A DNA stretch of 64,000 nt from Aplysia californica (lineage: Eukaryota): assembly GCF_000002075.1 (NCBI RefSeq), contig NW_004797722.1:258783-322782 (forward strand). The letters are read 5' to 3'. Both the position numbers and the translations under genes were made by a program. Positions 47,849-53,780 of this stretch are shown piece by piece. How positions within the stretch are numbered: position 1 is the first letter of the stretch; every line of letters starts with the position of its first letter. Under the pieces are notes generated by a model, which saw only the letters and a program-made list of their open reading frames with translations, did no database searches and had not been told where the DNA came from.

Positions 47849-48061
47849 TTATAACATTCCTTCTTCCCTCATCAGTTCGTCTCTGACTTCAGTGAGAGCA
47901 TATCCCAAAAGATTACGGCCTCTCCAGGTTGACTTGTCCCATGCTTGTGGATTACTCTCAGCCAAGCCAATACCCCACTTGTTGTCTGAGGGACTTGCCT
48001 CAACCAAAATCTTTCCTCTGGTCGCAAAAAGCGCTTGTTTCAGGTCTTTATGTTGTGAGAA
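47849..48061 (-). CDS. NADAR exon 3
   Basis: FSQHKDLKQALFATRGKILVEASPSDNKWGIG...GRNLLGYALTEVRDELMREEGML*. Confidence 0.92.
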   Translation of the reverse strand, partial: FSQHKDLKQALFATRGKILVEASPSDNKWGIGLAESNPQAWDKSTWRGRNLLGYALTEVRDELMREEGML

Positions 48062-51000: not shown

Positions 51001-53780
51001 NNNNNNNNNNNNNNNNNNNNNNNNNNNNNNNNNNNNNNACCAGCAGGTTCCAGGCAATGCCCCCACCAAAATTTTATTGCTTCCCATCTCTGACAGAGTT
51101 CCCCGCTCATGTAATGATAATGCATCATAAATCGTTGTGTTGTGACCACACTGTCAACACTAATTCTTTTTTAAAATGAAAGGCAGGTTCACTGCCAACT
51201 GATGACCACATTACGCAAAGGCGATCGGACAGTCCAAGAGTATGGGTGCCAGTCTGTCTAGGAAGTTCGAGCGCAAAACTCAAAGACGAGAGAGATGGTC
51301 TGGAAAACGTAAGTGTCCATGAGTTCACAGTTTGATGGAATGTGACGGGCCGTATAATGATGGCATATATTTGCTACTTGGTTGATCAGCTGAGCGCACC
51401 CAGGTTTATTCTTTTTTTTTCTTAAAAAGAAAGAAAAAAACCCAAACTAAATCATGACCTGAAAAGCCGGATTTTAGCCGAATGTAGTTCCTTCAGTGCG
51501 GGTCAGAGTCGGACCTTAGAGGTGACTTTTATATAATATAGAAAAAATTATGTTTTTCCAGCGCTCATATGACCTTAGCAGTTGCGAGCGCCGTAAAACC
51601 CTATACTACATACTACTATACTACATATGTTTTTCCAAAACAGTGGGATCTTAGACGAACCGGGACCATAAGCAGCGGGATCTTAGGCAGAGACAGTACA
51701 TTCCATGGACAGAATGTGCTGGGAATTTGGATATAACTGATGACTGAATTTAGCTCTTAGAAAATTGGTCTCATTCAAATTTTGTTTCCATGCAATATTT
51801 CATCACATGCTATACCTTCAGAACTCAAAGCCGAAACAGACATGAAAAACAAAGCAAAGAAAATTCTGCTCTTCAAAGTAAGATTTTCATAATGTACAAC
51901 TAAAGGTGGAATTTTATTGAAAAAAAAAGAGACGGCAGAAAATTTTAAACAAAATTCAAGGCAACTCCAAAGAGGCCGTCCATATCCATCGATGTCGTCC
52001 AATTACACTTCATAAACGCACACACACACAAACTGCGTACACACCCACCATCCTCCCTTGAACAATACCCCGAGTGCAGTGCAAAATAAAACGTCAGTCT
52101 ATATTATACTTACTTTATGCCGGTTTCCAGTCTTTACAACTTCGAAACACCTTTTCTCCCACACATCATCATCATAATTCTTGACTTTTCGCCCAAGGCT
52201 TTTCATCTGTGGTGGCTTGATACTTTTCAAAATCTGTGTAGCAATTTCATGGTCTCCAAAGCACACTAAAATACCAGAAAAATGCACTAGCTTTTATTTC
52301 AAACTTAGCTATTTTTTTTCTCTCTAAATATTGATAAAAAAGGAGGTGAATTCAGCCAGAATTAAGTGGACACATATATATTTTTAAAAATCACAACTGA
52401 AAAATGTGTCTGTCTACTATTATATAATATTGTAGTGTCAACTGACACAGAGTGAAAGTAGTAGTGGATGTAAGAAGAAGCAAAAAATGGACCAGGCAAT
52501 CTCAAACACACATGATAGTATATATGTGCTTCATGGTTTCTTGAAAGAGAGAAAGCACTAACATCTCTGTAGGATGAACAGGCTAAAAAAACCTTGAAGT
52601 ATTTGTTACAATTTGTAGTTGTAGCAGCACACTTTGTAATAGATACACAAGCTGAGCAAACTCTTCTGTGTTAGGTAAACACTCACTAGACTGCATCACT
52701 TACAGAGTCACTGGGTGAGAAATACTCAGTCAATAACTAACTCAGCCTGAATCAATAGAAGAAAGTGTCAAGTAGGCCTCTATATATATAACAACCTTAA
52801 TTCATGTCAAAATTAAACATTCACTCTGTGTTAAAAACATTAAACTCACTCTGTATAAAAAAACAACAAAAAACCTTTGTGTGTCAATAAGAAAATCACT
52901 CTACGTCAATAAGAAAATCACATTGTGTCAATAACAAAATCACTTGCCTCTAAATAACAAAATTCAGAGCAAACGAGTTCTACCTTCACTCTGTGTCAGT
53001 TGACGTGGCGTCCATTGACACAGAGCTACTATCTGTGTCAATTGACACTGCCTATAAATCATGCATTTATTATAATGCTTCTAAACTTTTTTCAAAGTGC
53101 CCAAAAACAATACAATGTGTGTCTTCAACTTAACTCCGAGAGTTATTGAATGACTAAGTTCAAAGTGTGTGTCCTCATCTTAATTATTACTGTAACGTCT
53201 AAACAGTTCACAACTGCAGAATATAATATATATACCGCTGGTTACGCCTTTTATCAATTAAATTAATGTTGATGATACATGTATATGCCTGACTTAATAT
53301 AATAATAATAGATTAAATTATAGTTTTTAACCTAGATGGCTAAGCCTTCACAGTCTTTATGCAATGCAGTTGTAGAGTCCTCCAAAGATGGAGTGTGAGG
53401 AATGAAGATTGATCTTATTACATGATTTATAATGTGATTTGAATTTTTGACTGTAGGCACCCCTTGTCTAGGAAAGTATGCATGCAGAAGTGACAATAAT
53501 AAATTAGAATAAATTCCAAATTTTAAAAATGTCAACAAACACTAGATCTAGATATCTAGATCTACCCTGCTTCTTCCACTAATATAATAAATAGCACCAC
53601 ACCTGCTTTCTGGTGCATCATATACTGCTCTGCACAAGTGTATCTCTGACCATCAACTTCAAAAAGACAACCATGGAACTGGCTGAAAGGAGAATCTTTC
53701 TTCCAAAAGAATTCAAACTTCATTTTTGCGTGGTTTAGGCTCTTCGACACACAAGAAACATCCACAATTGCTTCAGCCAT
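47849..53780 (-). CDS. NADAR / YbiA-family N-glycosidase (3 coding exons, 180 aa)
   Basis: Join 53780-53603 (donor G|GTGTG), 52265-52114 (TTTTAG acceptor, AAA|GTAAGT donor), 48061-47849 (TTTTCAG acceptor, TAA) = 543 nt in frame. NADAR motifs: FFW...FSQF, VDG..Y..AEQYMMHQKA..FGD, K.LGRKVKN, KFSQH, LVEASPSD..WGIG, WRGRNLLGYALTEVR. Confidence 0.92.
48119..48805. mobile_element. Tc1/mariner-type MITE in NADAR intron
   Basis: CAGTGGAAACC...TAACAGG at left; CCTGTTAC..GGTTTCCACTG|TA at right. Confidence 0.7.
49164..50105. mobile_element. MITE with GGGATCTTA subterminal repeats
   Basis: CCTAAGATCCCG at left, CGGGATCTTAGG at right; related copy at ~59155-59765. Confidence 0.6.
50522..50673 (-). CDS. 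NADAR exon 2, duplicate copy (probably haplotype/assembly duplicate)
   Basis: Same translation as 52114-52265, with intact splice sites. Confidence 0.45.
52114..52265 (-). CDS. NADAR exon 2
   Basis: VCFGDHEIATQILKSIKPPQMKSLGRKVKNYDDDVWEKRCFEVVKTGNRHK; phase 1 to 0. Confidence 0.88.
52431..53050. mobile_element. MITE-like element with GTGTCAA(T/C)TGACAC termini and subterminal repeats
   Basis: AGTGTCAACTGACACAGAG at left; TCTGTGTCAATTGACACT at right; tandem CACTCTGTGTCAATAAGAAAAT-like units at 52820-52990. Confidence 0.5.
53603..53780 (-). CDS. NADAR exon 1
   Basis: MAEAIV...KFEFFWKKDSPFSQFHGCLFEVDGQRYTCAEQYMMHQKA. Confidence 0.9.

What the first reader, a model, noticed from the sequence alone, without database searches (positions are those of the whole stretch)
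47849..53780. Spliced, bacterial-style NADAR/YbiA gene in an animal genome: candidate eraser for guanine ADP-ribosylation
Seen: three phase-consistent exons give a complete 180-aa stand-alone NADAR domain with the motifs AEQYMM.QKA..FGD, LGR.VKN, LVEASP.D..WGIG and G.NLLG. GT-AG introns filled with host MITEs show it is integrated, not contamination. Known: NADAR proteins hydrolyse reactive riboflavin-pathway intermediates (YbiA). Some also remove ADP-ribose from guanine in DNA, acting as antitoxins to DarT1. Animals do not make riboflavin, and guanine-ADP-ribosylating enzymes of the pierisin/CARP-1 type exist in some invertebrates, including clams. Inference: this may be the eraser half of a little-studied animal nucleic-acid ADP-ribosylation (defence or repair) system, possibly acquired by ancient horizontal transfer.
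Basis: partly seen in the sequence, partly recalled or inferred. Interest (0 to 1): 0.72.

Follow-up and report, generated by a model that had tools for sequence, protein, structure and literature searches.

The report
Ancient sea-slug ADP-ribose eraser gene
This is a real, spliced sea-slug gene for a known type of enzyme that is predicted to strip ADP-ribose off guanine in RNA and DNA; distant relatives with the same two introns make it likely an old inherited animal gene rather than a recent bacterial import, so it is mostly ordinary.

Summary
The gene is real: three minus-strand GT-AG exons give a 180-aa NADAR protein identical to a RefSeq record labelled Aplysia californica, and RNA-like contigs cross both junctions. 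The model matches the oomycete NADAR 8BAU, with 8 of 9 ADP-ribose-contact residues and the catalytic glutamate kept, so removal of N2-guanine ADP-ribose is likely. That is not new: mollusc NADARs are in print and a sponge NADAR has been shown to remove guanine and cytidine ADP-ribose. Recent horizontal transfer is not supported: closest relatives are molluscs and echinoderms, a second sea-slug copy has the same two introns, and 18 of 19 complete spliced homologues from other eukaryotes share intron 2. A pre-animal transfer stays unresolved. No partner transferase was found nearby or genome-wide, but CARP-1 itself could not be searched. Best reading: inherited repair enzyme against microbial ADP-ribosylating toxins. 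One lead: C. elegans irg-1, induced by an ADP-ribosylating toxin, is annotated with the same domain. The scan had not noted this gene elsewhere (one LINE-borne NADAR in another genome).

The parts
53603..53780 (-). NADAR coding exon 1 (Met1-Ala59, phase-1 donor); holds Glu51 and Lys58
   Evidence: splice joint in contigs of X12 and X16
52114..52265 (-). NADAR coding exon 2 (152 nt, Val60-Lys110); holds Lys81, Arg85, Trp95
   Evidence: joints
50522..50673 (-). Second, identical copy of exon 2; likely the other allele assembled twice
   Evidence: contig depth not doubled and the copy-A allele at 49468 joined to the unique left flank
47849..48061 (-). NADAR coding exon 3 (Phe111-Leu180, stop); holds catalytic Glu131, Asp136, Trp139
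   Evidence: joint 48061-50522 in X16 and X11
53781..54101 (-). 5' leader contiguous with exon 1 (at least this far in the X12 contig; to 54333 in X16, where it overlaps a divergent transcript)
   Evidence: table 8
47015..47848 (-). 3' untranslated region, at least this long (contigs stop at a repeat)
   Evidence: table 8
52254..52265 (-). 12 nt skipped by an alternative acceptor in RefSeq isoform X2 (176 aa, lacks residues 60-63 region incl. conserved Phe62)
   Evidence: reproduces P0002; not seen in contigs of X12 or X16; Phe62 in 110 of 113 aligned proteins
49447..50867 (.). Duplicated segment, left copy (99.3% identical to 51039-52461)
50939..51038 (.). 100-N run between the two copies
   Evidence: whether assembly gap or mask cannot be told from the window
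51039..52461 (.). Duplicated segment, right copy
48119..48805 (.). High-copy MITE-like repeat in intron 2
   Evidence: terminal inverted repeats; 84 matches among 40 scored candidates of 1371
49165..50107 (.). MITE-like repeat in intron 2
   Evidence: terminal inverted repeats, 21 of 30; very high contig depth inside it
52437..53004 (.). MITE-like repeat in intron 1; the two duplicate copies diverge inside it
   Evidence: terminal inverted repeats, 26 of 30
54333..63006 (+). Divergent (head-to-head) gene: donor after 54333 spliced to an exon at about 61763; likely the leader of the G-protein gamma gene at 62764-63006
   Evidence: loose ends in X12 and X16, match at 61766, Pfam G-gamma; link of the leader to the coding exon inferred

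Best explanation
This is a spliced three-exon sea-slug gene for a 180-residue stand-alone NADAR enzyme, likely inherited from early animals, that is predicted to cut ADP-ribose off guanine (and probably cytosine) in RNA and DNA and most likely serves to undo damage from microbial ADP-ribosylating toxins. Shown: gene structure, splicing, fold, active-site residues, a second copy with the same introns, mollusc orthologues. Inferred mechanism: Lys58, Arg85, Trp95 and Trp139 hold the pyrophosphate, Glu51 and catalytic Glu131 clamp the distal ribose, and the N-glycosidic bond to the exocyclic amine of the base is hydrolysed, restoring the base and releasing ADP-ribose. Inferred role: repair after attack by pierisin/Scabin/ScARP-like or similar foreign enzymes, without a linked writer. 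Step odds: real expressed gene 0.98; vertical since at least early molluscs 0.95 and since early spiralians or bilaterians 0.85; in-vitro activity on N2-G-ADP-ribose 0.85; anti-toxin repair as the main role in the animal 0.45.
For: Gene and splicing. Fold: model pLDDT 95.4; only 2 PDB matches at E<=0.001, 8BAU (TM 0.77) and YbiA 2B3W (TM 0.73). Residues: in the 8BAU alignment (chain numbers run 2 above the paper's, my inference) 8 of the 9 contact residues named in PMC11543638 are identical, Arg93 is Cys99; Glu51, Lys58, Arg85, Glu131, Asp136 are in 113 of 113 aligned proteins. All NADARs tested in PMC11125620 and PMC12945103, the sponge one included, hydrolysed G-ADP-ribose. Inheritance: window protein in a 13-row all-mollusc clade (96/89), paralogue in a separate 9-row gastropod clade (100/96); paralogue on G000:C885 is 47% identical with both introns at the same columns and phases; 18 of 19 complete spliced homologues from metagenome contigs have intron 2 after residue 110, phase 0. 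Context of bacterial relatives: of 35 loci, 10 have an NrtR regulator, 7 a microbial PARG, 1 an ARH, 1 a Tpt1; none a riboflavin or DarT family. Defence role in animals: proposed for sponge and reported for ladybirds (PMC12945103 passages); C. elegans irg-1 is annotated DUF1768, the former name of the family, and is induced over 100-fold by P. aeruginosa carrying exotoxin A.
Against: No activity or expression-on-infection data for this protein. In-vitro G-ADP-ribose hydrolysis is shared by all NADARs and does not give the role: YbiA and T4 NADAR failed to rescue DarT1 toxicity. NCBIfam names it a riboflavin-intermediate N-glycosidase (166.5 bits, cut-off 73.7). Long retention in two copies, with a promoter apparently shared with a G-protein gamma gene, fits a housekeeping role as well. 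C. elegans SNA-3 uses NADAR domains in trans-splicing. The IRG-1 sequence could not be obtained, so neither its catalytic residues nor its kinship were tested; two domains of nematode-like relatives lack the catalytic glutamate. The 10 NrtR loci are all Bacillota and not independent. Deep tree unresolved: animals are not one clade in the best tree (3 changes, 0 of 200 bootstrap trees), though not rejected (p-AU 0.316).
Confidence: 0.45

Rival explanations
1. Housekeeping N-glycosidase: it clears endogenous ADP-ribose or ribosyl adducts and small-molecule by-products of NAD or RNA metabolism (for example from RNA repair), or acts in RNA processing, with no special link to toxins.
For: Bacterial relatives lie in NrtR/PARG/ARH/Tpt1 clean-up operons; head-to-head with a signalling gene; spliced contigs found in 3 of the 3 RNA-like runs laid, of 3 studies, chosen because they hold the gene; PMC11543638 says physiological targets of stand-alone NADARs may be other bases or small molecules; PMC9503650 argues for soluble substrates; SNA-3 precedent.
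Against: Vertebrates lack NADARs; repeated domain and gene expansions in abalone, limpet, clam and mussel look more like conflict-driven change; NADARs do not act on phosphate-linked ADP-ribose.
Confidence: 0.28
2. Eraser half of the animal's own writer-eraser system: a CARP-1-like N2-guanine transferase marks viral, transposon or own nucleic acid and this enzyme protects self.
For: CARP-1 homologues occur in bivalves, cnidarians, sponges and a sea cucumber; invertebrate RNA viruses and oyster LINEs carry NADARs, as if countering a host writer.
Against: No transferase domain among the 284 open frames scanned around the two genes (frames of 62 aa or more, not all of them); no match to Scabin-like, DarT, DUF7587, Tox-ART-HYD1, Pertussis_S1 or ART profiles in the genome, where the PARP profile gave 18 matches on 12 contigs. 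These blanks are weak: controls were silent for 5 of the 6, and CARP-1 is only 12% identical to ScARP. PARP-made N1-guanine and uracil adducts are not NADAR substrates. None of 30 proteins scanned, 29 of them long relatives, is fused to a transferase.
Confidence: 0.2
3. Riboflavin-pathway damage control (YbiA/PyrR-type hydrolysis of the first two intermediates).
For: TIGR02464 match above cut-off; database names of homologues.
Against: No GTP cyclohydrolase II in the genome, control positive in 10 of 14 genomes; stand-alone; no riboflavin family beside 35 bacterial relatives; farther from E. coli YbiA (41.9 bits) than from 8BAU (81.8 bits).
Confidence: 0.04
4. Recent horizontal transfer from bacteria into this lineage, or contamination.
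For: 55% identity to myxobacterial and Bacillota proteins; ladybird NADARs are reported as transferred; the deep tree leaves bacterial, viral and animal lineages in one unresolved fork.
Against: Spliced, repeat-filled introns, animal neighbours (FERM, G-gamma); coding GC 42.5% in a 39% window; orthologues follow gastropod relationships; introns shared with the paralogue and with five separate eukaryote lineages.
Confidence: 0.02

Closest known systems
Amphimedon queenslandica (sponge) NADAR and Streptomyces SCO5665, 'NADAR family' of PMC12945103
   Same: Stand-alone NADAR with catalytic glutamate in an animal; that paper's family also lists Mytilus and Holothuria proteins and shows G- and C-ADP-ribose removal from DNA and RNA.
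   Different: The sea-slug protein is untested; I had neither sequence, so orthology to the sponge protein was not tested.
Phytophthora nicotianae NADAR (PDB 8BAU)
   Same: Best sequence and fold match (E 4e-22; TM 0.77); 8 of 9 ADP-ribose contacts identical; not linked to DarT.
   Different: 35% identity; Arg93 is Cys99; oomycete.
DarG1 antitoxins of DarT1 (BC4488 family)
   Same: Same fold, same Glu/Lys ribose and phosphate contacts, Lys81 at the place of K115/K75.
   Different: Catalytic residue Glu, not Asp; no adjacent transferase.
E. coli YbiA / plant PyrR NADAR domain
   Same: Fold (TM 0.73), catalytic glutamate, TIGR02464 match.
   Different: 28% identity, has the insert after WGIG that YbiA lacks; no riboflavin pathway in the genome.
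C. elegans IRG-1 and SNA-3; ladybird NADARs
   Same: Animal NADAR-domain proteins; IRG-1 is annotated DUF1768 and infection-induced; two whelk homologues are auto-named 'irg-1-like'.
   Different: Kinship untested; ladybird genes are reported as bacterial transfers (seen only as cited); SNA-3 has three domains and a splicing role.

Membership tests
NADAR superfamily (PF08719) | Profile score above the curated cut-off over the whole domain | tested here: met
   178.2 bits against 35.1, positions 1-162 of 163
NADAR superfamily (PF08719) | YbiA fold | tested here: met
   Model pLDDT 95.4; 8BAU TM 0.77, 2B3W TM 0.73
NADAR superfamily (PF08719) | Active-site Glu, Lys and catalytic acidic residue | tested here: met
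   Glu51, Lys58, Glu131 align with E43, K50, E125 of 8BAU; invariant in 113 of 113
NADAR superfamily (PF08719) | Hydrolysis of N2-guanine ADP-ribose | not testable with these tools
   Needs an assay; inferred from tested relatives
Stand-alone 'NADAR family' (SCO5665 / P. nicotianae / Amphimedon branch) | Closer to P. nicotianae NADAR than to E. coli YbiA, catalytic Glu | tested here: met
   81.8 against 41.9 bits; Glu131
Stand-alone 'NADAR family' (SCO5665 / P. nicotianae / Amphimedon branch) | Groups with SCO5665 and the sponge protein in a tree | not tested
DarG1 / BC4488 antitoxins | Catalytic aspartate in the last strand | tested here: not met
   Glu131 (definition)
DarG1 / BC4488 antitoxins | Encoded beside DarT | tested here: not met
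   Neighbours are FERM, G-gamma and glycosyltransferase genes; no DarT match in the genome, control silent
Riboflavin-repair N-glycosidase (YbiA/PyrR) | Riboflavin pathway (GTP cyclohydrolase II) in the same genome, or fusion to RibA/RibD | tested here: not met
   No match, control positive in 10 of 14; single-domain protein
Recently transferred bacterial gene | Best hits bacterial and narrow host range | tested here: not met
   23 of 30 named animal proteins outscore the best of 80 bacterial loci; named relatives in molluscs, echinoderms, a hemichordate, a bryozoan, lancelets and nematodes
Anciently transferred bacterial gene (pre-animal) | Animal clade nested with support inside one bacterial group | tested here: inconclusive
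   Backbone unresolved; one animal clade not rejected, p-AU 0.316; few non-animal eukaryotes sampled
Endogenous pierisin/CARP-1 writer-eraser pair | N2-guanine transferase in the same genome | tested here: inconclusive
   Six profiles blank; no CARP-1 query available, and CARP-1 is 12% identical to ScARP

The most novel reading that the evidence does not exclude
Animal NADARs, from this sea-slug gene to C. elegans IRG-1, are an ancestral, infection-induced arm of invertebrate immunity that enzymatically reverses ADP-ribosylation by bacterial toxins, on RNA and DNA bases and perhaps even on diphthamide of elongation factor 2, for which no eraser is known; vertebrates lost it. The classic reporter irg-1 would then be the antidote to the kind of toxin that induces it.
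Probability: 0.15. Interest if true: 0.7.

Novelty: new member of a known kind. Interest (0 to 1): 0.22.

Why it matters
As a gene it is ordinary: already annotated, in a family described in molluscs and assayed in a sponge. Two points are of some use. The shared intron positions show one old spliced animal gene where the protein tree cannot, which argues against reading every animal NADAR as a fresh bacterial transfer. And the physiological job of animal NADARs is stated to be open (PMC11125620); the irg-1 link offers a genetic handle on it in C. elegans. The exon-2 duplicate should not be read as alternative exon use.

Tried and rejected
Single-sequence fold failed (pLDDT 34.9); refolded with a 113-row alignment. 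No run was on record as RNA; contig depths were not used to rank expression. True tandem duplication of exon 2 was considered and put at about 10%: contig depth over the repeat is not doubled (X8 60 against 63-67; X1 12.8 against 10.9-17.7; X4 8-12.5 against 11.5) and transcripts hold one copy; mosaic alleles alone would not decide, as contigs collapse variants. The FastTree result that all 37 named animal domains form one clade (support 87, 0 of 85 labelled bacteria, 2 of 80 viral) was not kept: one unnamed row in it clusters with a deltaproteobacterial protein, IQ-TREE did not recover it and added rows broke it. IRG-1 was sought with a nematode query and not found (5 hits among 441 candidates). 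Second cluster look-up named only 2 of 10 proteins. ESM Atlas gave only NADAR clusters, no taxon for the short-intron eukaryote. The CARP-1 paper was not held. Literature searches were uninformative (none of the 25 listed held NADAR). Earlier-findings look-ups by place and by sequence were empty. PARPs as writers were rejected because NADARs did not reverse PARP-made base adducts. No complex prediction was run: no partner is claimed.
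Full report
Observation. The minus strand holds three coding exons, 53780-53603, 52265-52114 and 48061-47849, with GT-AG ends and phases 1 and 0. Joined by coordinates they give 180 residues identical to P0007, a RefSeq protein labelled Aplysia californica; a 176-residue isoform P0002 uses an acceptor 12 nt further in. 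The exons match Pfam NADAR positions 1-49, 51-100 and 101-162. No listed run is on record as RNA, but contigs of three runs guessed to be RNA, from three studies, skip the introns exactly: 52265-53603 in X12 and X16, 48061-50522 in X16 and X11; the DNA-like runs X1, X4 and X8 do not. The introns carry repeats with terminal inverted repeats, one of them high-copy.

Exon 2 is present twice, within a 1.42-kb segment repeated at 99.3% either side of a 100-N run. Both copies in one transcript would stop at codon 123, and the 2139-nt X16 contig has only one. Contig depth over the segment is not doubled in three DNA-like runs, and in X1 the right-hand copy's allele at 49468 is joined to the unique flank of the left-hand copy. 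I read this as two alleles assembled side by side (about 90%).

Protein. The alignment-based model is confident (pLDDT 95.4, pTM 0.87) and matches only 8BAU and YbiA at E<=0.001. In the 8BAU alignment, with chain numbers two above the paper's (my inference from the spacing), E43, K50, R79, D86, W89, E125, D130 and W133 correspond to Glu51, Lys58, Arg85, Asp92, Trp95, Glu131, Asp136 and Trp139; R93 corresponds to Cys99, a variable column. The catalytic residue is glutamate, not the aspartate of DarG1 or the histidine of phage enzymes (definitions). The paralogue keeps Glu51, Lys58, Lys81, Arg85, Trp95, Glu131, Asp136 and Trp139.

Origin. Of 348 hits among 368 candidates, 120 were listed; the named top hits are gastropods, bivalves, echinoderms, a hemichordate and a bryozoan; look-ups added lancelet and nematode proteins (7 of 10 named). 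23 of 30 named animal proteins outscore the best of 80 bacterial loci (55% identity) and all 80 viral loci (51%). In a 100-row IQ-TREE tree (44 animal domains, 43 bacterial chosen at most two per genus label, 12 viral, 1 other eukaryote) the window protein lies in a 5-row heterobranch clade (100/96) inside a 13-row mollusc clade (96/89), and the paralogue on G000:C885 in a separate 9-row gastropod clade (100/96). The paralogue is 47% identical and has both introns at the same columns and phases, so the spliced gene predates the split of these gastropods. Against a tidy story: the backbone is unresolved, animals are not one clade in the best tree or in any of 200 bootstrap trees, and holding them together is merely not rejected (p-AU 0.316).

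Intron test. A pattern for the exon-1 end followed by GT found at least 122 stretches in metagenome contigs; 80 were fetched. 30 were intronless; 50 were interrupted after the motif, five of which look like broken or cut bacterial genes; 34 held exon 2 and 19 exon 3. With the second donor left free over 90-260 nt, 18 of 19 placed intron 2 after residue 110 in phase 0, with a 152-nt exon 2; L220 did not. Intron 1 was selected by the pattern, so only intron 2 is a test. The 18 are not independent: they form five tree lineages, none inside the gastropod clades, 40-57% identical to the window protein. Ten have 48-66-nt introns at 25-33% GC and lie beside spliced EF-hand and pyruvate-carboxylase genes, the latter closer to the mitochondrial enzyme than to bacterial ones (303 against 231 bits); eight have introns of 373-1623 nt. 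Their phyla were not determined; that the short-intron group may be rotifer-like is from memory. The result points to one old spliced gene passed down vertically.

Context. Neighbours are a FERM-domain gene, two G-protein gamma genes and a glycosyltransferase; a divergent transcript starts head-to-head. No transferase domain was seen in 284 frames scanned (136 and 148, drawn from frames of 62 aa or more in the window and four flanking loci; not all frames were sent). Six transferase or toxin profiles were blank in the genome, while PARP gave 18 matches; CARP-1 is too distant from these profiles to be excluded. GTP cyclohydrolase II is absent, with a working control. Of 35 bacterial loci (131 same-strand frames, at most four a locus), 10 had NrtR, 7 microbial PARG, 1 ARH and 1 Tpt1, all in Bacillota; none had riboflavin or DarT families.

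Literature. PMC11125620 (parts 1-3 of 6 read; supplement searched, no hits) lists NADARs in arthropods, nematodes, molluscs, echinoderms, sponges and cnidarians and calls their role in animals unclear. PMC12945103 (passages, sections 2.4 and 2.5, whole supplement) shows a sponge NADAR removing G- and C-ADP-ribose, proposes defence against actinomycete toxins, and cites a ladybird study that I saw only as cited. Figures, including the published trees and alignments, are not held and may include Aplysia. Searches for irg-1 with NADAR or YbiA gave 0 papers, and 1 of 7 DUF1768 papers in the listing is the one that ties it to irg-1; the library lacks most subscription papers, so this does not show that the link is unpublished.

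Mechanism and verdict. Most likely the protein hydrolyses the N-glycosidic bond between ADP-ribose and the exocyclic amine of guanine or cytosine (0.85 in vitro). For the role in the animal I commit to repair after foreign toxins (0.45), ahead of housekeeping clean-up (0.28), an own writer-eraser pair (0.2), riboflavin repair (0.04) and recent transfer (0.02). It works like DarG1 but is not a DarG1; it is a member of the NADAR superfamily, probably of the stand-alone branch with the oomycete and sponge enzymes. New member of a known kind; interest 0.22.

Noticed in passing
G000:C885:232026-237392 (loci L001, L005, L006), minus strand: Second intact NADAR gene, 183 aa, 47% identical, same two introns, in a separate gastropod-wide clade.
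   Followed up: yes
window:54101-54333 and 61763-63006: Head-to-head arrangement with a + strand gene whose leader splices from 54333 to about 61763; G-protein gamma domains at 62764-63006 and at L008:7417-7662 (tandem pair).
   Followed up: partly
window:53781-54333: Eleven upstream ATGs with short frames (1-24 aa) before the NADAR start, two of them within 85 nt; no control for chance was run.
   Followed up: no
window:30162-32312, minus strand: 717-codon open frame in a GC-rich stretch (54%) with no Pfam match.
   Followed up: no
window:12905-16830, plus strand: Exons of a FERM / FERM-adjacent (band 4.1-like) gene.
   Followed up: no
window:39595-39951, minus strand: Reverse-transcriptase fragment.
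   Followed up: no
window:54950-57210: Nested inverted repeats over about 2 kb just upstream of the gene, foldback-like.
   Followed up: no
proteins P0129, P0133, P0001, P0003, P0130: Multi-domain NADAR expansions: 7 domains in a 4240-aa abalone protein, 4 in a limpet, 2 in clam, abalone and lancelet; several loci in a freshwater mussel.
   Followed up: partly
L170, L187, L189, L190, L203, L206, L246: Long-intron eukaryote contigs with tandem NADAR genes.
   Followed up: no
L172, L207, L215: Conserved gene order pyruvate carboxylase - NADAR - EF-hand protein in the short-intron eukaryote group.
   Followed up: partly
PMC3527274 table; P0019, P0063: C. elegans irg-1 is annotated DUF1768 (NADAR) and whelk homologues are auto-named irg-1-like; irg-1 is induced by exotoxin A-bearing P. 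aeruginosa. Sequence not obtained.
   Followed up: partly
L012, L013, L019, L024-L026, L035, L037, L051, L056: NrtR - NADAR - PARG (sometimes ARH, Tpt1, NMN transporter) operons in Bacillota.
   Followed up: partly
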